Below are positions 1 to 10,348 of a stretch of 10,348 bases of DNA, one piece after another. The stretch lies in contig JBHHXN010000184.1 of the NCBI GenBank assembly GCA_046757025.1, positions 1 to 10,348 on the forward strand, in the 5' to 3' direction. The notes beneath the pieces were generated by a model that had not been told where the DNA came from, did not search any database, and saw only the letters and a program-made list of their open reading frames with translations. Each line of letters starts with the position of its first letter. Position 1 is the first letter of the stretch. Origin of the DNA: a bacterium (GTDB lineage Bacteria; Zhuqueibacterota; Zhuqueibacteria; Oceanimicrobiales; Oceanimicrobiaceae). Made by a program: the position numbers and the translations under genes.

Positions 1-150
1 AACGGAAACTCGAGAAATGCGCGATTTAAGAGCCTCTTCGCGAAGGCGTCCCTTCGACAAGGCTCAGGACAGGCCTCGCCGAGCCAGGCAGGAATTCACC
101 CTCGGCCAGGAGACCTTTGGGAAGATCAGGTCGTTTTCGTTCAGACATTA
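1..150. mobile_element. Putative MITE-like miniature element, left end cut by the window edge
   Basis: Bases 1-9 (AACGGAAAC) match the reverse complement of 133-141 (GTTTTCGTT -> AACGAAAAC) at 8/9. The right end continues CAGACATTA into TTAATTAA (148-155). The interior is GC-rich and palindromic (TTCGCGAA 37-44; GCCGAG 78-83 / CTCGGC 101-106), unlike the AT-rich DNA that follows. No transposase is visible in the window. Confidence 0.4.
50..73. repeat. REP-like short interspersed palindromic repeat (CCCTTCGACAAGGCTCAGGACAGG)
   Basis: The reverse complement CCTGTCCTGAGCCTTGTCGAAGGG resembles the widespread CTGAGCxTGTCGAAGG REP-like family that reads as PELVEG/LSLSK-type peptides (recognised from memory). 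Only one copy is in the window. Confidence 0.6.
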
Positions 151-153
151 ATT

Positions 154-254
154 AAGAATTGTCAGCAAAAAATATGCCGCATAATATGTGCGAATCCGCC
201 ATTGAATATCATTGAGAGGCATTCAACACCGAAATTCTTTCTGACACGTACCTT
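154..254. repeat. Second small element bounded by inverted repeats (possible degenerate MITE)
   Basis: TGTCAGCAAAAA (160-171) matches the reverse complement of TTCTTTCTGACA (235-246) at 10/12. Internal hairpins occur at 178-192 and at TTGAAT 202-207 / ATTCAA 221-226. Confidence 0.3.
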
Positions 255-619: not shown

Positions 620-937
620 ATGATGCGTTTAAAATTATTTTTCTTTTGTTCTGGCTTGATTTTTTCAATCATTCTCCTCGTCCGGTGCAGCGGCCCGTTT
701 CCTTCGATCTCAAAATCTGGGTTACCTTCCGATCACACCGAAAAAATAAAAGGTGTCCTTCACAAAAAAGGATTTAAATATCCATACAAAACAAATAGCG
801 GTTGTTCCGATTCGAAATGTCATCAAGATGATCTCGATGGCGGTGTCGCAGAAGTCGATGGGAAAATCACTATCTCTCCATCTTGCTTCCAGTGCCATGA
901 GACCTTGTGGGAAGATGACATTGATGAGGAAAATTGA
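620..937 (+). CDS. Small di-heme c-type cytochrome, probable lipoprotein (CxxxxCH...CxxCH type), 105 aa
   Basis: Start moved from 476 to ATG 620 (or 623), downstream of the sigma54 promoter and at the beginning of a hydrophobic signal MMRLKLFFFCSGLIFSIILLVR-C (atypical lipobox). Heme motifs are CSDSKCH (803-823) and CFQCH (884-898). Two further His (SDHT, VLHK) are candidate distal ligands. Acidic tail. Confidence 0.8.
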   Translation: MMRLKLFFFCSGLIFSIILLVRCSGPFPSISKSGLPSDHTEKIKGVLHKKGFKYPYKTNSGCSDSKCHQDDLDGGVAEVDGKITISPSCFQCHETLWEDDIDEEN

Positions 938-983: not shown

Positions 984-1481
984 GTGAATAGATTTCTAAT
1001 TGGATTGCTATTGTTCGTTTCTGTGGGAGCTCTGGTGCAAGCCCGGGAAAATTTGACCAGGGCTAAGGACTTCAAAGGCTTAACTGTTACGGGTGATAAA
1101 ATAAATCTTTCCGATTATAAAGGTCAGGTGGTTATTCTCGATTTCTGGGCGAGCTGGTGCAAGCCCTGCCAGAAAGAATTCCCGTTTCTCATCGAGTTGT
1201 ATAATACATACTATAAAAAGGGATTGACGGTGATCACGGTTAATTTGGATGAAAACCCGGTGAACATGAAAAAATTTCTGTCAAAGCTTAAGGCTAAAGT
1301 CCTGTTTCCGCTAATTGTGGACAAAGAGGGAAAGATACCCGCCATGTACAAAGTAGAGGCCATGCCCACGACGCTTTTTATCGACAAGCGCGGAATGATT
1401 CGCAGCCGGCACACCGGCTTCAAAGATTCACACAAGCCGATATATCACAAAGAATTACAATTGTTACTGGCAGAGAAATAA
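984..1481 (+). CDS. TlpA/ResA-family periplasmic thiol:disulfide oxidoreductase (thioredoxin fold), 165 aa
   Basis: Signal peptide (…GALVQA|RE), LSDYKGQVVILDFWASWCKPC active site, cis-Pro loop AMPTTLFID, strong RBS. Confidence 0.93.
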   Translation: MNRFLIGLLLFVSVGALVQARENLTRAKDFKGLTVTGDKINLSDYKGQVVILDFWASWCKPCQKEFPFLIELYNTYYKKGLTVITVNLDENPVNMKKFLSKLKAKVLFPLIVDKEGKIPAMYKVEAMPTTLFIDKRGMIRSRHTGFKDSHKPIYHKELQLLLAEK

Positions 1482-1495
1482 CGGAGAAATTGTCG

Positions 1496-1708
1496 ATGAA
1501 ATTAAAACATCTCATTTGGTTGTTTCTGGTGTTGGTTCTGTCAAGCTGTGCCACTGTCCAACCCTGGGAAAGGGGAGGGCTGTCTGATCCCATCATGATT
1601 TTTGACGAGAACCCCCTGGACGCCGGCATTAACGAACATCATATCGATTATCGTGAAGGATCGGTGGGCGGCACTGGCGCACAAAGCGGAGGTTGCGGTT
1701 GTGGTTAA
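1496..1708 (+). CDS. DUF4266-family small lipoprotein, 70 aa
   Basis: GGAG at 1483-1486 precedes ATG 1496. Lipobox LSS-C, then ATVQPWERG.L.DPIM, REGS.GG and a C-terminal GGCGCG (CxC), all hallmarks of DUF4266. It sits between a TlpA-like gene and DUF3570, as expected. Confidence 0.88.
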   Translation: MKLKHLIWLFLVLVLSSCATVQPWERGGLSDPIMIFDENPLDAGINEHHIDYREGSVGGTGAQSGGCGCG

Positions 1709-2849
1709 GTCGATTCAATTGCTCATATCAATTTGTTTTTTTGCTGCGACCGCAACCTTTTCACAGGATTTACCTGAAAGTGAATTGCAGGTTAACTTGA
1801 ATTCGTATTTCGACAGTTTTAATGTCGAGATTGTGTATCCCAGTATTTCGTTGACCAAAAAATTGTCGGAAACGACTTCGGTCAACGCGCGCTATCTGGT
1901 GGATGTCATCAGTGCGGCATCCATGAAAAGCCATTTCACAGTGGACGGTGTCACCTCAGCCACTGAAAAGGAAGACGGCGGCGGAGATAATTCACCGGAC
2001 GAAGTACGCCATGAAATCGGCGGCGGATTTACCCAGGCGATAAAAGACGGTGTTCTTTCAGTCAACTACCTGTTAAGTAAAGAACACGATTATCGTTCTA
2101 CAACCCTGGCTGGAACGTATTCACAACCGTTTGCCAGAAAGAATACGGTGCTGCAGATGGGAGTGGTGCGCAGCTGGGATAAAGTTTTCCCACAAATCCG
2201 CGACTGGGAGAAAGAGAAAGACTCCTACACATTCAGTTTGAATCTCACACAAGTATTGAGCAAGCGGTTGATTTCGCAAGCGATTTTTTCTTACAACTAT
2301 TCGAAAGGATTGCTTTCGGATCCGTATCAAATCGTACAAATTATTCAAAATGATGCGGTTGCCAATTATGAGCCGGTGCATCCGGATAAACGCATTCGCA
2401 AAGCCGTGGGTTTGCGGATGAACTACCAGGTAGATCGCAAGTCAGCTCTACAAATCGGCGTGCGTTATTACTGGGATGACTGGGAGGTCAAATCGTTTAC
2501 CACCTCGTTCAATTTTCAACAGCATTACAACGATTTTGTCACCGTTGGGCTCGGCTTTCGAAATTATGTCCAGGGCAGCGCTTTTTTCTTCAAAGAAAAT
2601 TATTTGGCGCCGGAAGAATTCATGACAGTGGATAGTAAATTGGACGAATTGTATTCCAATGAATATCAATTGAAGTTGAGTTTAAACGGCGGGCATTTCA
2701 AGGGCGTGCCATTTTTATCCAATGAGAAGGTGCAATTGAACTTGCGAGTTAATTTTTACCATCGGCACACCTCTACGCCCAATTGGCACAGCCGCACCAA
2801 AGACCTGTACGCGTACATTCTCAGCTTCGGCGCGCGCTATCGTTTTTAA
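1701..2849 (+). CDS. DUF3570-family outer-membrane beta-barrel protein, candidate ApbE flavinylation substrate, 382 aa
   Basis: Start moved to GTG 1701 (GGAGG at 1688-1692; signal peptide MVKSIQLLISICFFAATATFS|QD). Alternating amphipathic strands, family-like segments (SKEHDYRS, GLLSDPY, RYYWDDWEVKS) and a C-terminal beta-signal GARYRF. Motifs VDVISAAS and VDGVTSAT. Confidence 0.85.
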   Translation: MVKSIQLLISICFFAATATFSQDLPESELQVNLNSYFDSFNVEIVYPSISLTKKLSETTSVNARYLVDVISAASMKSHFTVDGVTSATEKEDGGGDNSPDEVRHEIGGGFTQAIKDGVLSVNYLLSKEHDYRSTTLAGTYSQPFARKNTVLQMGVVRSWDKVFPQIRDWEKEKDSYTFSLNLTQVLSKRLISQAIFSYNYSKGLLSDPYQIVQIIQNDAVANYEPVHPDKRIRKAVGLRMNYQVDRKSALQIGVRYYWDDWEVKSFTTSFNFQQHYNDFVTVGLGFRNYVQGSAFFFKENYLAPEEFMTVDSKLDELYSNEYQLKLSLNGGHFKGVPFLSNEKVQLNLRVNFYHRHTSTPNWHSRTKDLYAYILSFGARYRF

Positions 2850-2884: not shown

Positions 2885-3568
2885 ATGAAACGTAGAGAAT
2901 TCTTAAAAAACTGTTCGCTGGTTTTAACTGGCCTGGCAGTGACCAAAGGTGTTGGCATGCAGCGGAATTGGCTTTTTGCGAAAGAATCGGGATGGGATTT
3001 TTCGCTTGATTTGCTCACAGATGATCCCGTGCGCGCAGTGGCTAAATTAACAGATCTGCTCAGAACATTCGACTGCAATTTAGATGAAATCAAATACACG
3101 GAATACACTCTTCCCGGTCAGCAAATTGGCGACTTGGTGCTCATCAAAAACGAGCAACTGATCAATTTTAGAAAAAGCCCGGATGCCCTGTCAAAACAAT
3201 TACTGGAAATTGCAAATGAGCTTGGGCTGCCCCGAGCTATGGAAAATCCGACCCTGGTCAGATTCTCCAACAAGCGCAGCGAACGTGCTTCCACGGAGGT
3301 TCACATCTTTCACAAAAATCGTCTGATCGAAAAAATCTCCGTGGCTGCCCATCAGCCGTCCCTTCAAATTAAAGGCACCAAAGGAGAGCTTACGGTGGCA
3401 ATTGAAAGTGCTGAAGTGAGAATCACCCATGCTTCCTGCAAGCACAAGACCTGTGTGAAAATGGGTCGGATCGAGCAGTCCGGGCAAAATCTGGTGTGCG
3501 TACCCAATGAAATTCGTATTGCCATCGCTGGCGAAAATGCTCTGGGAGTCGATAGTGTGGCTTATTAA
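2885..3568 (+). CDS. Tat-exported protein with a C-terminal NusG domain II (Lin0431/DUF1312-like), 227 aa
   Basis: AAGGAA precedes ATG 2885. Twin-arginine signal MKRREFLKNCSLVLTGLAV. The C-terminal GELTVAIESAEVRITHASCKHKTCVKMGRIEQSGQNLVCVPNEIRIAI matches the NusG-II pattern SxCPxKxCVxxGxIxxxGxxIVCxPN. Confidence 0.85.
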   Translation: MKRREFLKNCSLVLTGLAVTKGVGMQRNWLFAKESGWDFSLDLLTDDPVRAVAKLTDLLRTFDCNLDEIKYTEYTLPGQQIGDLVLIKNEQLINFRKSPDALSKQLLEIANELGLPRAMENPTLVRFSNKRSERASTEVHIFHKNRLIEKISVAAHQPSLQIKGTKGELTVAIESAEVRITHASCKHKTCVKMGRIEQSGQNLVCVPNEIRIAIAGENALGVDSVAY

Positions 3569-4580
3569 ATTGACCGGCGCGACCCTGTTTTTTAGCTTGT
3601 GCTTTTCAAATATCAACTATGCCGGCGACAAAGGTCCGGCATTTGAAATTTCAACGACCAAATATTTATTAGGGACGGAGGTTGAAATTACTGTAGTACA
3701 TGCCGATATCCAGAAAGCAAAAGTCGCCAGTTACCATGCCTACAAAGAAATCGAGCGCATAGAAGCCCTGCTGAGCTCGCACGATGAGCAAAGCGAAATC
3801 TCATACATCAATCACAACGGCTGGAAGGCGCCGGTCAAAGTCAGTTACGAGACGTTCGCCATTCTGCAAAGAGCCATTGCTTACTCGGAAAAGTTCTTCG
3901 GATTGTTCGACGTGACCATCGGGCCGTTGAGTGAGCTGTGGGGCTTCAATGGCGATCAAGAAATTAAATTGCCACTCAAAGACGAGCTGCAATCGCGGCA
4001 GGCTCTGGTGGATTTTCACCTGATTTCATTCGATGTTCAGGATACCACTGTTTTCCTGGCAAAAAAAGGAATGCGCATTGATTTAGGCGGCATTGCGAAG
4101 GGATACGCGGTGGACCGAGCAGCCGTGGTTTTGAAGAACGACGGTGTGAAAAAGTTTTTAATTAATGCTGGCGGCGATATTTATGCCTGTGGCTGGAAAA
4201 ATGCCAAATCCAAATGGCAGGTGGGATTGCAGCATCCGAGAAAGCGCCAGAAGTTGTTAGCCAGGTTCGAGTTAAGCGATTTCGCGGTGGCCACCAGCGG
4301 CGATTACGAACGATTTGTTGAAATCGACGGTCGGCGTTATCATCACATCCTGAATCCAGAAACCGGCGTCCCTGGAGACTTGAGCCAGAGTGTCACGGTG
4401 TTTGCCCCCACGGTCGAAGAAGCGGATGTGTGGGCTACGTTTTTGTTTCTATACGGGAAAAATGACAAATCACCTCTGCCAAATCCGCACAAAATTAAAT
4501 CGCTTCTGGTGCATTCTGACGGGCAAATCGATTGCGATGACTCATTAAAATCAGAGTTCGGGTTGCAATTTCTCAATTAA
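3555..4580 (+). CDS. apbE: FAD:protein FMN transferase (flavin transferase ApbE), about 341 aa
   Basis: Motifs LGTEVEI, SEISYIN, FDVTIGPL..LWGF, IDLGGIAKGYAVD, INAGGDI, VATSGDYER, YHHILNPETG, ADVWAT. The likely start is GTG 3555 (GGGAG at 3544-3548, followed by a signal peptide); ATG 3537 and 3507 are alternatives. Confidence 0.96.
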   Translation: MWLIKLTGATLFFSLCFSNINYAGDKGPAFEISTTKYLLGTEVEITVVHADIQKAKVASYHAYKEIERIEALLSSHDEQSEISYINHNGWKAPVKVSYETFAILQRAIAYSEKFFGLFDVTIGPLSELWGFNGDQEIKLPLKDELQSRQALVDFHLISFDVQDTTVFLAKKGMRIDLGGIAKGYAVDRAAVVLKNDGVKKFLINAGGDIYACGWKNAKSKWQVGLQHPRKRQKLLARFELSDFAVATSGDYERFVEIDGRRYHHILNPETGVPGDLSQSVTVFAPTVEEADVWATFLFLYGKNDKSPLPNPHKIKSLLVHSDGQIDCDDSLKSEFGLQFLN

Positions 4581-4821: not shown

Positions 4822-5832
4822 ATGGTCATGTACGAGCTAATCGTGATTGGCGCCGGTCCCGCGGGTATCAGTATGGCGGTTGAAGCACGTCAGGCTGGCA
4901 TTCCTGCCGACAAAATATTAATCCTCGAAAAGTCCGAAGAACACTCATGGACCATTCGCAAATTGTATCCTGAAGGCAAACCGGTGGCGGCAAATTACAA
5001 GGGACAGAATGCCCTTTGTCATGGCGTGATGTGCATCCCGGACTTGAGTAAAGAGGAAACCCTGTCCTATCTCGACCGGGCCATTCAAGAAAATGCCTTG
5101 CATGTTCATTACAAAGAAGGCGTAAATGCCATTCAACAACTCAAAACGGGCGGCTTTAAAATTGTCACAGAGCAGTGCACCCACCCCACAAAAGTGTGCG
5201 TTATCGCCATCGGTATTTTCGGTAAACCGAATAAGCCGGATTATCCATTACCGCGTTCTCTCAAATCAAGAATTCATTTTGATGTGACTTCGGTTACCAT
5301 TGAAAATTCGCGCGTACTGGTGGTGGGCGGTGGAGATTCCGCATCCGAATACGTGCAGTACTTGTGTGAGCGAAACAATGAGATCACCCTTTCCTATCGC
5401 AGGGATGATTTTTGGCGTATGAATGAAATCAATAAAAAAAGTTTACTCGCACTTGAAAAAACGGAAGCCGTGGAAGTCATGCGCAGCAGCACCGTCATCA
5501 AAGTTGTCGAAGAAGACGGCAAACCCAAAGTGACTTTAGCAAAAAGGGAACAGTACGAACGTGTCTTCGATCATCTGGTTTATGCTTTGGGCGGTACTAC
5601 CCCACAGAATTTTTTACGAAGCATCGGCATCGACTTTGAAGGAGAGGTGCCCACTGTCAAAGATGGGTACGAGACGAATATTCCGGGTTTATTTTTGATT
5701 GGAGATTTAACCGCCGGTCGCAAAGGCGGATCGATCATTTCTGCGTTCAACTCATCCCGCTCCGCCATGGTGCGCATTTGTGACAATTATCTTGCATGCA
5801 CGGTGCCTATGGTTCCCACACATCAGAGTTAA
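4822..5832 (+). CDS. NAD(P)/FAD-dependent oxidoreductase, thioredoxin-reductase fold without CxxC; FqrB-like (flavodoxin/ferredoxin:NADP+ reductase type), 336 aa
   Basis: FAD motif VIGAGPAG, NADPH motif VVGGGDSA...SYRR, C-terminal ETNIPGLFLIGD, no redox CxxC. Segments EKSEEHS.TIRKLYPEGK, SKEETL, AIG..GKPNKP.Y.LP and LVYALGGTTP..FL resemble Helicobacter/Campylobacter FqrB as recalled. AAGGAA RBS; no signal peptide. Confidence 0.85.
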   Translation: MVMYELIVIGAGPAGISMAVEARQAGIPADKILILEKSEEHSWTIRKLYPEGKPVAANYKGQNALCHGVMCIPDLSKEETLSYLDRAIQENALHVHYKEGVNAIQQLKTGGFKIVTEQCTHPTKVCVIAIGIFGKPNKPDYPLPRSLKSRIHFDVTSVTIENSRVLVVGGGDSASEYVQYLCERNNEITLSYRRDDFWRMNEINKKSLLALEKTEAVEVMRSSTVIKVVEEDGKPKVTLAKREQYERVFDHLVYALGGTTPQNFLRSIGIDFEGEVPTVKDGYETNIPGLFLIGDLTAGRKGGSIISAFNSSRSAMVRICDNYLACTVPMVPTHQS

Positions 5833-5944: not shown

Positions 5945-8900
5945 TCAGGGATAGAGCTGAGAACTACCTGGAGTCGGAATCTTAAATTGACCCAAAACGC
6001 CTGTCGGAATACGCATGACCATCGGGGAATTAGCTCGCCATTCGAAAGCGCCCATATCGATCATACCGTTGACCACAGACCTGGGAAGTCTTTCCAAATC
6101 AATGCCAGGACCGATAGACGCATCCGCCTGATCGATGACTGGAGAACCCGGCTGCAATCTCCAATTTAAATTGGCGGGATCCACGAACATGGGATCGAAG
6201 TTGAGGTTGTTGCCACTCATCTGAAACAGGCTTTTGGCTCTTTTCTGGTGAACCTGTGTTTTTGCGGTATTTTTTAACTCCCGCATAAACAAACTCCTGA
6301 TCTTAGTACTCATACTCAGCCAGTTGGTAAAGGACAGGGTTCCGTCTGATGCGATAGCAAGATGCGGTGCAGGAGAGCTGGTTTCGATAATTAGCTCTGG
6401 AGCCGTGCTGCCTTCTTTGGAGCTGTATTTTGCAGCATCGGAGGAAGCGTTTTTTATTCCGAAGCTGTAAACACCGTCTCCAGTTATAGCAGTAGAGACA
6501 TCAAACTCCACGATGTCACCTTTGGCAACGGCGCCGACGGAGCTTAATGGACTGCCGCCTATGGCCGGTGCGTTGTTCCAGTTCAGGCTGCCTTCATCCC
6601 AGCTACTGGCAATCGAATAGATTGAACCGCCGTCGTCACTGGCACTGACCACTTTCAATCGGAGCCGCGCACTGGTTACGTTGCCACTAAGTCCGTTCAC
6701 GGCGAACATCAAGTAAGCGTGCATCTCTTTTGAGGATGTTTTGCGCAAGCGAAGTTGGCTGGAACCGCCATAATTTTTACTGGACTTGTCTGACCGAGCA
6801 AATGCATCGTCAGTTGGGTTGAATGTGAAGGTACCTGGAGTTCCTCCGCCGCCAGCGTTGACGGTTATGATAACCTGGTCAGTTCCGGTCGCACCCTGAT
6901 TATCCGCTACTGTCAAAGTGATGTTGTGCGTACCCACTGTAAGCGATACCGAAGGTGTAATGCCAGTAGCGAAGACAAGTCCGCCTTCACTCCAGTCGTA
7001 GCTAACAATACTGCCGTCGGTGTCATAAGAGTCGCTGCCATCGAGCGAGACTATTTCAGCACCTGAGTTGTCAGAGTCAGTTACTGTTTGGTCAGGTCCG
7101 GCGTCCGCGACGGGTGGTGTGTTGGCGCCGCCGCCAGCGTTGACCGTCACCACTACTTGATCCGCTGCGGTTGCACCGTGGTCATCGGATACTGTCAAAA
7201 CGATGGTGTGGACACCCACGGCAAGATTTACCGTAGGTACGCTACCAGTCGCAATGGTACTCCCGCTTTCACTCCAGTCATAACTCATAATAGTACCATC
7301 GGAATCGTAGGAACCGCTGCCATCCAGCGTAACCATTTCATCATCCGAGTTGTCGCTGTCGGTCACGGTTTGATCCGCACCGGCATCCGCTATGGGCGGA
7401 GTGTTGCCTCCGCCGCCGCTACTGGTTTCGATGATCAGCTCTGGCGGAGTGGAACCCTCTTTTGAGCTAAATTTAGCGATGTCGGACGAATTGTTCTTCA
7501 GTCCAAAGGAATAGGTACCGTTCCCCGATATAGCGGAGGATACATCGAATTCTACCATATCGCCACTTGAAATTTTGCCAGCAGAACTCAATGACGAACC
7601 AGGAAACTGCGGTGCACTCTCCCAGGTGACATTGTCTTCATTCCAGTCATTAGTTACCGCATAAATGGAGCCGCCATCTTTACTGCCATTGCGAACTTTC
7701 AGGCGAACCTTTGCATTCAAGATCGAACCACTCAGTCCCGTTACATCGAACTTCAGAAAACTGTGAAATGTTGTGGAGGAATTACGCACGCGAAGATCGC
7801 GTCTCCGGCCATAATTATTCAATTTACGATTGGATCGTACATAGCTATCGTCAGTCGGAATAAATGAAACGGTAGTTGGTGTGATGGCGTTCACGGTTAC
7901 GCTAACTACGTCTGTGCTCGAAGCGCCGCGTTCATCAAACACTTTCAGTAAAATGGTGTGAGAACCGATTGCCAATTCCACCGTTGGATTCACACCCGTT
8001 GCGAGGGGTGCGCCGTTTTCGGTCCAGGTGTAGCTGACGATGGAGCCGTCGGAGTCTGAAGAGCCGCTGCCATCGAGGGTTACGGGTTCGGAGCCGCTGT
8101 TGTCCAGGTCTTTGAGGGCCTGGTTGGCGCCGGCATCGGCGGTGGGCGGCTGGTTATTGTAATCGTAGCCTCCCATGATGTTGTTAAAGGCGACCTGGCT
8201 GAAGCTGTTGGAGTTTTGTTCGCTCAGCCATTCCGGCTGCACATGGGGGTTGTCCACGTGCAACTGATCGGGTGTCCAGACATAGTTTTTAGCCCAGGTG
8301 TAATCCAGGTCTTCTTCTTCCCCGCCTTCCACTGGCTGCTGGTAATTCACACGCCAGTTGCCCCAGATGATGTTGTTGAAGATCATCGGATCACTGTATC
8401 CAGGCGGCATATAAACGCTGCCGTCTGGTTTTTCAGCAATGTACTCGTGGCCATGGCGTTCGCTGTCGATACCGCCACCGGCGGGGTCAAAGCTGCCCAT
8501 CACCATATTGCCGACGATGGTGTTATTGAATATTTTAGCATCACGGATATCGTCCAATGCAAGAGCGGCGCCGCGGGCATGGTTCTCGCCGTGATCGTCG
8601 GCGATGTTTTCCGCGAACAAGTTGTTATAGACGTTGATGTGGGACAGGGTGTCGGCAATGTCTTCAAAACTGATGGCGCCGCCGTCATCCGGTGTCCAGT
8701 TGCGCAGAAAAACGTTACCGTAGATATCTGCAGGTCCAGAGTCTTCAAGGAACATCGCTCCGCCGTGGTCTTCGGCTTTGTTTTCCATCATGACGTTGCC
8801 ATAGACTTTGAGATGGTCCTTGATCTCATACAAACAGACAGCGCCGCCGTAATCCGCCGACCAGTTGTGAAACAGAATGTTGTTGTAGATTTCATAGGTA

Positions 8901-10348
8901 CCTGGAGGCGGGCCGGGGTTGTAATCGTCCCAGACATGCTCGGGCTGGCCGTGCTCTTCAGAGTACTCCGGTTCGTCGTTGACGCTGATGCCGCCGCCGT
9001 AGCCGCCGAAGTTGCCGTTTTCGGCGATGACGTTGGACCAGATCTTGACGTTGTGGTTGGAGTAATGCAGCCAGATACCGCCGCCGTAGTAGCCGCCGTT
9101 GCGGAAGATGATGTTGTTGTTGATATCGAGATCGGAATTGCCGTAATCGCAGAAAATTCCGGCGCCGATTTCTTCAAGAACAGTGCCACCGGTTATGGTA
9201 AAGCCGCAGACACGGATATCAGATTTTGCGCCATGAATACCGCCTTTTCCAATAAAAATGGTTGGTCCGGCGCCGCCGCCTTCGCCCTGGTGTTGAATTT
9301 GCATGCGTTCGGGCAGGCCGTTGATGGTGGTTTCATGAGGTCCCGAACCGATCAGGTGAACGTGGTTTTTATCGATTTTTACACGTTCATTGTAGGTGCC
9401 AGGCGCTACGAATATATATCTCGGGGTTCGGTTAGGTAAATTGTTTACGGCCTCCTGTATGGTGTTCCAGGGGTTGGCCTTGCTACCGTCTTCCGGACCG
9501 CTGTTGCTGGCATCCACATAAACAGACCGTTTTCTCATATAAGAAGCTCTGCTGGATCTATAGTTGATTTCAACCATCAATGCGTTAGAAAGGCCGGTTG
9601 TGGTTGCGACTAAGAGGGGACCGCTAATGGCATCTGAGGGTATTTCGACGTCGATGTAATTGTCGGTCCATTCGAGCACGTCCAGGGGCTGTCCGGCCAG
9701 GCTGACGGTCTGGTACCCCTGGGCGTCGCCGAAATTGAAGCCCTGGATGCGATAGGTATCGCCGGGAGCCAGAATGACCGGTGGGCTGGCCGCCAATTTG
9801 GTGTTTTTCCCTTTGGCTCCTGTGCGTCCCAGAACCTGTGCTGGCGGCGCGCCGGGCACGATGATGGTGGGCTCGGTAAACAGAATGAGCGGGTCCTGGT
9901 TACATCCGAAGGTAAAGGGGGCGGTGGCCGTGGGCACGAGGGACCAGTCGGCTTCGAATTTGAATTTGCCCTGTCCGAAGGTGTAGGGAAGAATCAGGGG
10001 CAAATAGTTGGGGCAGAATCCCGGCAGAGTGGGGTCGTTGCCGGCGTAGATATGCACGCCGGGCGCGAAGCGGCGTTCCATTTCGGGTTTTTGCACGGGA
10101 TCTTCCCCGGGTGGACAATCGCCCGGGTAGGCGGCGGCATGGCAGAGTGGATTGCCCATGAAGCCGGCGCCCATGAGATAGCCGAGGTGGTCGTAGACGC
10201 CTACGGGGGCGCCGGGCACGCCGGCTTTTTCTGCGAACAGCAGACTTCTGGCATCGCCGGGATCGGGCGTAAACTCGCCGCCGCGGTTATCGATGTTGAC
10301 GTCGTCGAAGACGCCGCCTTCGATTTCGCCGGCCAGGGGCACGCCGAA
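5945..10348 (-). CDS. Very large extracellular multidomain protein, 5'-truncated (>1465 aa): IPT/TIG - right-handed beta-helix (pectin-lyase-like) - PKD - DNRLRE/CBM96 - PKD - PKD - DNRLRE/CBM96 - choice-of-anchor-Q-like tail
   Basis: The frame is open to the window edge (…TTC GGC GTG CCC), so GTG 10342 is probably not the start. IPT ~9560-9790. Beta-helix ~8165-9527 (VYVDASN..DGS.ANPWNTIQEAV, then repeated N.I..N....GGGI). PKD units NxPPxADAG…VTLDGSxSxDxDGxIxSYxW at ~7886-8157, ~7136-7405 and ~6854-7123. DNRLRE/CBM96-like units PTDD…NYG…L.F.V…SSKEG..PELIIET at ~7424-7872 and ~6380-6833. Tail DPMFVDPANLNWRLQPGSPVID…IDMGAFE at ~6038-6220. Confidence 0.9.
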   Translation of the reverse strand, partial: FGVPLAGEIEGGVFDDVNIDNRGGEFTPDPGDARSLLFAEKAGVPGAPVGVYDHLGYLMGAGFMGNPLCHAAAYPGDCPPGEDPVQKPEMERRFAPGVHIYAGNDPTLPGFCPNYLPLILPYTFGQGKFKFEADWSLVPTATAPFTFGCNQDPLILFTEPTIIVPGAPPAQVLGRTGAKGKNTKLAASPPVILAPGDTYRIQGFNFGDAQGYQTVSLAGQPLDVLEWTDNYIDVEIPSDAISGPLLVATTTGLSNALMVEINYRSSRASYMRKRSVYVDASNSGPEDGSKANPWNTIQEAVNNLPNRTPRYIFVAPGTYNERVKIDKNHVHLIGSGPHETTINGLPERMQIQHQGEGGGAGPTIFIGKGGIHGAKSDIRVCGFTITGGTVLEEIGAGIFCDYGNSDLDINNNIIFRNGGYYGGGIWLHYSNHNVKIWSNVIAENGNFGGYGGGISVNDEPEYSEEHGQPEHVWDDYNPGPPPGTYEIYNNILFHNWSADYGGAVCLYEIKDHLKVYGNVMMENKAEDHGGAMFLEDSGPADIYGNVFLRNWTPDDGGAISFEDIADTLSHINVYNNLFAENIADDHGENHARGAALALDDIRDAKIFNNTIVGNMVMGSFDPAGGGIDSERHGHEYIAEKPDGSVYMPPGYSDPMIFNNIIWGNWRVNYQQPVEGGEEEDLDYTWAKNYVWTPDQLHVDNPHVQPEWLSEQNSNSFSQVAFNNIMGGYDYNNQPPTADAGANQALKDLDNSGSEPVTLDGSGSSDSDGSIVSYTWTENGAPLATGVNPTVELAIGSHTILLKVFDERGASSTDVVSVTVNAITPTTVSFIPTDDSYVRSNRKLNNYGRRRDLRVRNSSTTFHSFLKFDVTGLSGSILNAKVRLKVRNGSKDGGSIYAVTNDWNEDNVTWESAPQFPGSSLSSAGKISSGDMVEFDVSSAISGNGTYSFGLKNNSSDIAKFSSKEGSTPPELIIETSSGGGGNTPPIADAGADQTVTDSDNSDDEMVTLDGSGSYDSDGTIMSYDWSESGSTIATGSVPTVNLAVGVHTIVLTVSDDHGATAADQVVVTVNAGGGANTPPVADAGPDQTVTDSDNSGAEIVSLDGSDSYDTDGSIVSYDWSEGGLVFATGITPSVSLTVGTHNITLTVADNQGATGTDQVIITVNAGGGGTPGTFTFNPTDDAFARSDKSSKNYGGSSQLRLRKTSSKEMHAYLMFAVNGLSGNVTSARLRLKVVSASDDGGSIYSIASSWDEGSLNWNNAPAIGGSPLSSVGAVAKGDIVEFDVSTAITGDGVYSFGIKNASSDAAKYSSKEGSTAPELIIETSSPAPHLAIASDGTLSFTNWLSMSTKIRSLFMRELKNTAKTQVHQKRAKSLFQMSGNNLNFDPMFVDPANLNWRLQPGSPVIDQADASIGPGIDLERLPRSVVNGMIDMGAFEWRANSPMVMRIPTGVLGQFKIPTPGSSQLYP
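6380..8157 (-). repeat. Intragenic domain repeats: three PKD and two DNRLRE/CBM96-like modules
   Basis: Near-identical peptides recur, e.g. DIAKFSSKEGSTPPELIIETSS vs DAAKYSSKEGSTAPELIIETSS, and NTPPIADAGADQTVTDSDNS vs NTPPVADAGPDQTVTDSDNS, joined by GGGG linkers. Confidence 0.9.

What the first reader, a model, noticed from the sequence alone, without database searches (positions are those of the whole stretch)
1902..1964. Two tandem non-canonical flavinylation motifs in a loop of the DUF3570 barrel
Seen: DVISAAS (1902-1922) and DGVTSAT (1944-1964), 14 codons apart, followed by a flexible acidic/Gly stretch EKEDGGGDNSPDE. Established: ApbE attaches FMN to the last Ser/Thr of D-x-x-[S/T]-G-A-[S/T]. 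Both copies here replace the central Gly (with Ala or Ser). No classical FMN-binding-domain gene is in the operon, so the barrel is the only obvious ApbE substrate. Inference: a two-FMN wire on a loop folded into the barrel lumen, and an ApbE with relaxed motif specificity.
Basis: partly seen in the sequence, partly recalled or inferred. Interest (0 to 1): 0.7.

Follow-up and report, generated by a model that had tools for sequence, protein, structure and literature searches.

The report
Two flavin sites on plugged barrel
The two motifs are real, conserved and likely the flavin-attachment sites already shown for this protein family in 2021, so the core idea is known; the missing glycine is common in the family, and the barrel's pore is predicted to hold a small cysteine-tailed lipoprotein, with the flavins likely at its outer mouth.

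Summary
Observation confirmed. DVISAAS (1902-1922) and DGVTSAT (1944-1964) lie 14 codons apart in a DUF3570 gene. Both are conserved in the 120 best homologues (self included), none with Gly, and this is the only such pair among 3,734 ORFs of the genome.

The core idea is published: Meheust 2021 showed ApbE flavinylates Chlorobium DUF3570 at two motifs. Site 1 aligns with the canonical Gly site in 57 of 58 Chlorobia-class barrels.

A special relaxed ApbE is not needed. Gly-less site 1 is normal in other Bacteroidota (0 of 22 with Gly), a natural Gly-to-Ser site is published, and Gly and Gly-less sites sit beside the same apbE.

A loop folded into the lumen is unsupported. Two models give a 16-strand barrel with site 1 ending strand 3 and site 2 in an unplaced loop. 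DUF4266 is predicted inside the lumen (0.73; best control 0.00).

The barrel is probably not the only substrate: DUF2271 (with dsbD) lies divergently upstream in relatives. The scan already holds 97 notes on this system on other DNA, including the Gly-less and plug readings. Function remains open.

The parts
1902..1922 (+). Site 1, DVISAAS. Likely FMN acceptor Ser at 1920-1922; end of barrel strand 3 (mature residues 47-53)
   Evidence: Aligns with DS[VI][ST]GAS-type sites of Chlorobia-class barrels, 57 of 58 canonical.
1944..1964 (+). Site 2, DGVTSAT. Likely FMN acceptor Thr at 1962-1964; in the low-confidence loop between strands 3 and 4 (mature residues 61-67)
   Evidence: pLDDT below 50. 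Spacing from site 1 is 14 in 94 of 120 homologues, up to 49.
1965..2003 (+). Acidic/Gly linker EKEDGGGDNSPDE leading back to strand 4; a third motif is inserted in the loop in 10 of 120 homologues
1701..2849 (+). DUF3570 (PF12094) gene: predicted 16-strand outer-membrane beta-barrel. Signal peptide about 1701-1763, read by eye
   Evidence: pLDDT 91.8; 91.6; best match BcsC 6tzk, Z 19.9, rmsd 3.8, 292 aligned; PelBC and PgaA entries tied.
1496..1708 (+). DUF4266 (PF14086) lipoprotein with C-terminal GGCGCG (1688-1705); predicted to thread the barrel lumen
   Evidence: Present in 58 of 59 related loci with at least 2.5 kb on each side.
984..1481 (+). TlpA/ResA-like exported thioredoxin-fold protein (WCKPC)
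   Evidence: Present in 47 of 59 loci.
620..937 (+). Small predicted lipoprotein with two haem-type motifs (CSDSKCH, CFQCH) and two conserved upstream His; likely a di-haem cytochrome c
   Evidence: Present in 38 of 59 loci; 61 of 62 homologous ORFs (some the same gene in overlapping loci) have two C-x2-4-CH motifs. No Pfam or NCBIfam hit. Atlas look-alikes are c7/c3-like cytochromes at 0.91 or less.
2885..3568 (+). NusG_II (PF07009) protein with a Tat-like leader (RREFLK, read by eye)
   Evidence: Present in 54 of 59 loci.
3549..4580 (+). ApbE FAD:protein FMN transferase, conserved core intact; start codon uncertain (ORF opens at ATG 3507)
   Evidence: Present in 54 of 59 loci.

Best explanation
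The two motifs are likely the covalent FMN sites of a predicted 16-strand outer-membrane barrel whose pore is predicted to be threaded by the DUF4266 lipoprotein, so the flavins would sit at the outer mouth as the end of an electron path across the envelope. Step 1 (inferred, about 0.75 for both sites): an ordinary exported ApbE uses FAD to attach FMN to Ser (1920-1922) and Thr (1962-1964). It probably acts on the unfolded chain in the periplasm before membrane insertion, because site 1 ends up continuous with strand 3 and both sites end up outside. Step 2 (predicted, about 0.75): DUF4266 enters from its periplasmic lipid anchor; residues 15-18 sit at the inner end and 35-38 at the outer end of the lumen, leaving its Gly-rich CxC tail free. 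Step 3 (inferred, about 0.35): DsbD reduces TlpA, TlpA reduces the DUF4266 CxC, and the CxC passes electrons to the rim-held FMN of site 1. The tethered FMN of site 2 then hands them to an outside acceptor such as a metal chelate or disulphide. Gly, Ala and Ser at position 5 are interchangeable variants and need no special enzyme.
For: Sites: C. luteolum DUF3570 is flavinylated by cognate ApbE and both Ser-to-Ala changes are needed to abolish it. Site 1 aligns column for column with canonical sites. The other four motif positions are conserved in 116-120 of 120 homologues. That protein was co-expressed in E. coli, found mostly in the pellet and purified denatured, yet was flavinylated, which fits modification of an unfolded chain.

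Enzyme: in L003 and L008 the DUF2271 has canonical DAVTGAT while the barrel has Gly-less sites beside one apbE, and orthologous DUF2271 in 5 other loci has Ser. 9 of 22 other-Bacteroidota barrels have a Gly-less site 1 and a Gly-type core later in the same loop.

Barrel and plug. Complex score 0.73 (runs 0.67, 0.73, 0.73), best of 3 controls 0.00; the mark was reached by 116 of 157 solved complexes and 2 of 215 mismatched pairs (counts hold only roughly, since my own alignments were used); contact agreement at least 66%, partner pLDDT at least 64. 51 of 55 strand contacts lie on the polar face, on 12 of 16 strands. No solved sequence relative of either chain was found. Family-invariant R82, S105, E107, D109, Y110 and D139 cluster at the outer ends of strands 4-7, next to site 1.

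Electron source: dsbD follows DUF2271 in this genome, lies in the divergent unit in relatives, and flanks the cluster in Chlorobia-class loci.
Against: No flavin, redox or localisation measurement exists for any Gly-less DUF3570 in what I read. The tested protein is from Chlorobium, whose class carries Gly sites; I did not obtain that exact sequence. D-x-x-S-A-A-S as a natural acceptor appears in no paper I read; only an engineered G-to-A change is reported, with about 50% loss. The DUF4266 tail (residues 44-52, with the CxC) and barrel residues 47-79 are not among the confident contacts, so CxC-to-FMN contact is not predicted. How periplasmic TlpA would reach a tail emerging near the outer end is unresolved. 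Site 1 is absent in a paralogous clade that includes the genome's second DUF3570 (C53: DRVLIPP, one canonical DGVTGAS). 19 of 57 Chlorobia-class barrels lack a second site in this loop, so two flavins in this loop are not essential family-wide. The outward topology is inferred from strand order, not measured.
Confidence: 0.6

Rival explanations
1. One reading: both FMNs lie on a loop folded into the barrel lumen as a fixed two-flavin wire, made by an ApbE with altered specificity.
For: Strands 4-7 have no confident DUF4266 contacts and strand 3 only one, so there may be room on that side. By alternation the site 1 Asp falls on the lumen-facing side. One ApbE position (Arg at 95 in the alignment numbering) is shared by the two Gly-less groups and differs in Chlorobia and in the Nqr-linked ApbE.
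Against: The loop is unplaced in two models. Spacing varies from 14 to 49 residues and 10 of 120 homologues have a third copy. The lumen is predicted to hold DUF4266. The ApbEs beside Gly-less barrels fall in two separate parts of a midpoint-rooted tree, and at 3 of 5 differing positions they match the Nqr-linked ApbE. Gly and Gly-less sites share one apbE.
Confidence: 0.12
2. Haem route: the small di-haem lipoprotein (620-937), not the thiol chain, exchanges electrons with the FMNs. TlpA and DUF4266 serve assembly or plugging.
For: The gene is first in the operon in most of the 38 of 59 related loci that have it, and keeps two haem-type motifs. The genome has 4 cytochrome c assembly genes.
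Against: It is absent from 21 of 59 loci and from most Chlorobia-class and other Bacteroidota clusters, whereas DUF4266 is nearly always present. I did not test its binding to the barrel.
Confidence: 0.12
3. Reductive metal uptake: the FMNs reduce a bound metal at the outer mouth, and the DUF4266 CxC is a metal ligand that carries the ion inward.
For: Meheust 2021 found 25 DUF3570 clusters with a VIT1 iron transporter. The two tail cysteines are invariant in 148 of 148 aligned DUF4266 (rows were selected on that tail). Conserved acidic residues line the outer mouth.
Against: No metal transporter recurred among the larger conserved neighbour clusters of the 80 closest loci (unannotated clusters read by eye). 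The plug is predicted to fill much of the pore.
Confidence: 0.15
4. Only one site, most likely site 2, is modified here. Site 1 is conserved for structure as the end of strand 3.
For: Site 1 has Ala at position 5 and a Ser acceptor, each of which lowers yield. It lies partly in a strand. One paralogous clade has lost it.
Against: In the C. luteolum protein both sites had to be mutated. Site 1 keeps the acceptor Ser in 95-100% of three separate groups.
Confidence: 0.15

Closest known systems
Chlorobium luteolum DUF3570 (ABB24424.1) with cognate ApbE (ABB24423.1), and the ApbE/DUF3570/DUF4266/thioredoxin-like 'DsbD system' of Meheust et al. 2021, eLife 10:e66878 (PMC8238504; abstract, section 4 and keyword passages read; Fig. 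3C logo not visible; supplementary file 1 too large to read)
   Same: Same Pfam family, two acceptor motifs, and the same partners: thioredoxin-like, CxC-tailed DUF4266, ApbE, and DsbD nearby in relatives.
   Different: Position 5 is Ala or Ser, not Gly. The operon adds a di-haem-type lipoprotein and a NusG_II protein, with a divergent DUF2271(-dsbD) unit in relatives. The words barrel, porin and NusG do not occur in that paper's main text.
Kinetoplastid fumarate reductase FRDg acceptor DGRSSAS, consensus Dxx(s/t)(s/g)AS (bioRxiv 10.1101/2020.12.30.424822; passages read)
   Same: A natural ApbE-type site with Ser in place of Gly; the acceptor Ser was shown by mutation, and by MS in Leptomonas.
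   Different: A eukaryotic soluble enzyme with a fused ApbE domain. It gives no precedent for Ala at position 5.
16-strand polysaccharide-export barrels BcsC (6tzk), PelBC entry (9h80), PgaA-type secretin (4y25)
   Same: Closest solved folds: Z 19.9, 19.8 and 19.4; rmsd 3.8, 3.2 and 3.3; 292, 259 and 255 aligned.
   Different: 8-11% identity; a shared fold only. No sequence-level match in the PDB.
Porin-cytochrome conduits (Shewanella MtrCAB, 6r2q)
   Same: Works-like comparison only: a partner protein inside an outer-membrane barrel, with redox centres at the outer face.
   Different: The predicted occupant is a 52-aa haem-free lipoprotein, the redox groups would be thiols and FMN, and the barrel is smaller (MtrB match Z 13.9, rmsd 8.3; MtrB's 26 strands and deca-haem MtrA are recalled).

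Membership tests
DUF3570 (PF12094) | Pfam score above the curated cut-off | tested here: met
   131.2 bits against 25.
ApbE/DUF3570/DUF4266/thioredoxin cluster (Meheust 2021) | apbE in the cluster | tested here: met
   3549-4580, PF02424 272.5 bits; 54 of 59 related loci.
ApbE/DUF3570/DUF4266/thioredoxin cluster (Meheust 2021) | DUF4266 with C-terminal CxC | tested here: met
   PF14086 69.5 bits; GGCGCG at 1688-1705.
ApbE/DUF3570/DUF4266/thioredoxin cluster (Meheust 2021) | Thioredoxin-like protein | tested here: met
   984-1481, AhpC-TSA/Redoxin/Thioredoxin_8 above cut-off. The paper cites PF13899, which did not appear among the hits.
ApbE/DUF3570/DUF4266/thioredoxin cluster (Meheust 2021) | dsbD co-located (285 DsbD clusters in the paper; 316 further clusters lack it) | tested here: inconclusive
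   The only dsbD is on contig C82 behind DUF2271. Both contig starts end in dispersed repeats with no unique overlap. The unit is divergently adjacent in L002, L225, L227, L228 and L231.
ApbE/DUF3570/DUF4266/thioredoxin cluster (Meheust 2021) | Two motifs in the position of the family's acceptor sites | tested here: met
   Site 1 aligns with canonical sites in 57 of 58 Chlorobia-class barrels, and the second motif lies in the same loop. The exact tested sequence was not obtained.
ApbE/DUF3570/DUF4266/thioredoxin cluster (Meheust 2021) | Covalent FMN on both sites | not testable with these tools
   Needs co-expression and MS.
Strict ApbE motif D-x-x-[S/T]-G-A-[S/T] | Asp1, Ser/Thr4, Ala6, acceptor Ser/Thr7 | tested here: met
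Strict ApbE motif D-x-x-[S/T]-G-A-[S/T] | Gly at position 5 | tested here: not met
   Ala in site 1, Ser in site 2; 0 of 120 homologues have Gly. Published work treats the Gly as non-essential.
Outer-membrane beta-barrel | Even number of amphipathic strands, closed barrel, C-terminal aromatic residue | tested here: met
   16 strands in two models, C-terminal RYRF, all listed fold matches are membrane barrels. Prediction only.
Porin-cytochrome conduit (MtrCAB type) | Multi-haem cytochrome chain spanning the barrel lumen | tested here: not met
   The operon's only cytochrome-like protein has two haem-type motifs, and the predicted lumen occupant has none.

The most novel reading that the evidence does not exclude
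DUF3570-DUF4266 is a haem-free electron conduit across the outer membrane. A lipoprotein plug carries a swinging Gly-rich CxC arm through the free side of a 16-strand barrel. It takes electrons from DsbD-TlpA to a rim-bound FMN and on to a tethered second (sometimes third) FMN that reduces extracellular acceptors. In this lineage a di-haem lipoprotein and a flavinylated DUF2271 add further periplasmic inputs.
Probability: 0.25. Interest if true: 0.75.

Novelty: new member of a known kind. Interest (0 to 1): 0.3.

Why it matters
As given, the finding mostly re-finds a 2021 result. Two points remain useful. First, motif searches that require Gly would miss both sites here and site 1 in most non-Chlorobia DUF3570 proteins that I sampled, so the ApbE substrate set may be under-counted, and D-x-x-S-A-A-S is a natural variant I did not find tested. 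Second, the barrel-plus-plug model turns a system of unknown function into a testable machine. If thiol-to-flavin transfer across the outer membrane is real, it would be a cytochrome-independent route for extracellular redox chemistry in KSB1, Ignavibacteria, Chlorobia and Bacteroidia. That second point applies to the whole family and was reached before in this scan on other DNA.

Tried and rejected
Profile search of the 50% representatives: nine tries met a full queue. The family survey therefore rests and has no named proteobacterial sample; the counts are of related sequences and are not independent.

The tested C. luteolum sequence and the Fig. 3C logo could not be seen. Supplementary file 1 is too large to read and the three readable files hold no DUF3570 entry. 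The logo may already show Ala or Ser at position 5.

A wider alignment did not order the loop. The structure tools return no coordinates, so the loop could not be measured against the lumen.

No PDB sequence relative was found for either chain, apart from one fibre-protein match at E 0.18.

Joining contig C82 to the window failed: only dispersed repeats are shared.

ApbE specificity signature: five positions separate the Gly-less groups from Chlorobia, and three are shared with the Nqr-linked ApbE. The tree used the last 330 residues of 116 sequences, midpoint root, no clade test. I rejected this as evidence for a special enzyme.

The FAD oxidoreductase at 4822-5832 was rejected as a member: its profile found 2 hits among all loci and the window. 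Promoter and terminator scans were uninformative.

Literature: 'DUF3570' returned 5 papers, 4 listed; 'DUF4266/PF12094/PF14086' 5, 4 listed; flavinylation with barrel terms 2 and 3 papers, seen as listings only. Huang 2024 (PMC11334425; passages and section 5) has no occurrence of DUF3570 or barrel. A degenerate consensus without the Gly, recalled from a 2018 review, was not found in the library and is not relied on.

Full report
Observation. The two motifs are as described. They lie in a DUF3570 gene (1701-2849) within a co-oriented run: small two-haem-motif lipoprotein (620-937), TlpA-like thioredoxin (984-1481), DUF4266 (1496-1708), DUF3570, NusG_II protein (2885-3568) and ApbE (3549-4580). 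The pair is far from chance: 1 in 100,000 shuffles, and the only close pair among 3,734 ORFs of the genome. In the best 120 of 253 homologues (self included), positions 1, 4, 6 and 7 of both motifs are kept in 116-120 sequences and position 5 is never Gly: site 1 has A 104, S 15, T 1, and site 2 has S 112, A 7, T 1.

What is known. Meheust et al. 2021 (PMC8238504; abstract, section 4 and keyword passages) identified two conserved [S/T]GA[S/T] motifs in ApbE-associated DUF3570. They showed that the Chlorobium luteolum protein is flavinylated by its cognate ApbE and that both serines must be changed to abolish it. They described the ApbE/DUF3570/thioredoxin/DUF4266 cluster with or without DsbD and left the function open. 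I could not see their logo or supplementary file 1, which may already include Gly-less members.

Are these the same sites? I sampled the class of the genome that holds L068 (titled Chloroherpetonaceae); 68 of 121 genomes had DUF3570. In an alignment of 185 distinct barrel ORFs of 330 aa or more (shorter, N-containing and duplicate ORFs left out), site 1 falls in the same columns as canonical DS[VI][ST]GAS-type sites in 57 of 58 Chlorobia-class sequences. 38 of 57 have a second Gly-type core 11-22 residues later in the same loop. So site 1 is positionally homologous to the canonical site of the class from which the tested protein comes. The loci taken were the best Pfam scorers, so the sample is biased.

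Is a relaxed ApbE needed? Probably not. In 22 other Bacteroidota barrels site 1 never has Gly (mostly SAYSSAS or DHYTSAS), and 9 of these have a Gly-type core later in the same loop. Beside close orthologues of the window's operon lies a divergent DUF2271 whose site is DAVTGAT in L003 and L008 and DA[VI]TSAT in L001, L002, L004, L005 and L219, while the barrels keep Gly-less sites. A review (PMC12052999, section 8) reports that G-to-A lowers flavinylation by about half. A trypanosome site, DGRSSAS, is proven (bioRxiv 10.1101/2020.12.30.424822, passages). The window's ApbE keeps the conserved core, and the ApbEs beside Gly-less barrels share only one distinctive residue, Arg95, that both the Chlorobia and Nqr-linked enzymes lack. 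Against this reading, I found no report of a natural Ala-at-5 site, so site 1 is the less certain of the two.

Other substrates. The genome has two apbE genes, one in the window and one by the nqr genes. It also has three FMN_bind matches, a second DUF4266-DUF3570 pair on C53 with a single canonical DGVTGAS and no apbE match on that contig, and a DUF2271 with DAVTSAT followed by the only dsbD at the start of contig C82. In 6 of 7 other same-family genomes with a strong DUF2271 match, it stands head to head with the small cytochrome gene; the seventh ends at a contig edge. Here both contigs begin in dispersed repeats with no unique overlap, so the junction is likely but not shown. 'The only obvious substrate' holds for the operon, probably not for the locus.

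Where are the sites? Two AlphaFold2 models, from a close alignment (119 rows) and a wide one (147 rows), give 16 strands at mean pLDDT 91.8 and 91.6. The nearest solved folds are 16-strand exporters such as BcsC (Z 19.9, rmsd 3.8, 292 aligned). Site 1 (mature 47-53) is the end of strand 3 and the first loop residues. Site 2 (61-67) lies in a stretch with pLDDT below 50 in both models. With both termini periplasmic, as is standard for such barrels, the strand 3-4 connection is an outer loop (inference). Spacing is 14 residues in 94 of 120 homologues but reaches 49, and 10 of 120 carry a third motif. This fits a flexible tether better than a fixed wire.

What fills the lumen? DUF4266 precedes the barrel in 58 of 59 loci with at least 2.5 kb on both sides (59 of the 80 kept, from 397 found). 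The complex prediction scored 0.73 (0.67, 0.73, 0.73) against a best control of 0.00. That mark was reached by 116 of 157 solved complexes and 2 of 215 mismatched pairs; the counts hold only roughly with my own alignments. Contact agreement was at least 66% and partner pLDDT at least 64. It supports binding and does not show it. 51 of 55 contacts within strands are on the polar face, over 12 of 16 strands. DUF4266 residues 15-18 meet the inner ends of strands 9-11, and its invariant Glu36 region meets the outer ends of strands 11-16. Neither chain has a solved sequence relative, though a pass by fold likeness cannot be excluded. The CxC tail and the motif loop are not among the confident contacts. 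Strands 4-7 are free of contacts and carry family-invariant polar residues at their outer end next to site 1, a plausible flavin pocket (inference).

Mechanism. Most likely an ordinary ApbE flavinylates both sites on the unfolded chain in the periplasm, the barrel folds with the DUF4266 plug, and the flavins sit at the outer mouth. Electrons would run DsbD, TlpA, DUF4266 CxC, FMN 1, FMN 2, outside acceptor. The motifs, gene order and conservation are shown here. The fold and plug are predicted. Flavinylation is inferred from a tested homologue. The electron path and acceptor are inference only. Two flavins in this loop are not universal: a paralogous clade has lost site 1, and 19 of 57 Chlorobia-class barrels have no second site there.

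Novelty. This is a new member of a published system. The Gly-less pattern is a common family variant. The barrel-and-plug reading was not found in my paper searches. The scan's index holds 97 findings on this system in at least 88 genomes, including a Gly-less operon and a predicted lipoprotein inside the barrel. I read those notes after my own prediction; they are unchecked and are not counted as support. No earlier finding matched this sequence or this genome. Interest 0.3.

Noticed in passing
window 620-937 (+): Unannotated small lipoprotein with a Cx4CH and a CxxCH motif plus two conserved His. Some homologues have CxxCH at both. Present in 38 of 59 related operons; no Pfam or NCBIfam hit.
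   Followed up: partly
G000:C82:268-2949 (L216): DUF2271 with DAVTSAT followed by the genome's only dsbD. It is head to head with this operon in relatives and probably adjacent to the window across an assembly break.
   Followed up: yes
G000:C53:23162-24613 (L115:9162-10614): Second DUF4266-DUF3570 pair with one canonical site (DGVTGAS) and site 1 replaced by DRVLIPP, downstream of an HZS_alpha-domain protein (PF18582); no apbE on the contig.
   Followed up: partly
window 2885-3568 (+): Tat-leader NusG_II protein between the barrel and apbE in 54 of 59 loci. Its role is unexplained, and NusG does not occur in the text of Meheust 2021.
   Followed up: partly
window 1-156: About 150-bp dispersed repeat with many 72-92% identical copies in the genome; related repeats sit at the start of contig C82.
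   Followed up: partly
window 4822-5832 (+): YpdA/TrxR-like FAD oxidoreductase after apbE; not conserved beside related operons.
   Followed up: partly
window 5945-10348 (-): Large open frame running off the window, with apparent beta-helix, PKD-like and repeated carbohydrate-binding-like segments, read by eye.
   Followed up: no
G000:C13:12969-13757: The NqrC-like protein has DGLSGST (Ala6 replaced by Ser), another departure from the strict motif in this genome.
   Followed up: no
G000:C113:306-1916 (L217): Tat-signal Gfo/Idh/MocA oxidoreductase containing DAVTSAT at residue 455; a possible further ApbE substrate, or chance.
   Followed up: partly
L205-L208 (Chlorobia-class genomes): Two to four DUF3570 genes per cluster. 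Some carry their extra motif in the loop after strand 1 instead of after strand 3.
   Followed up: no
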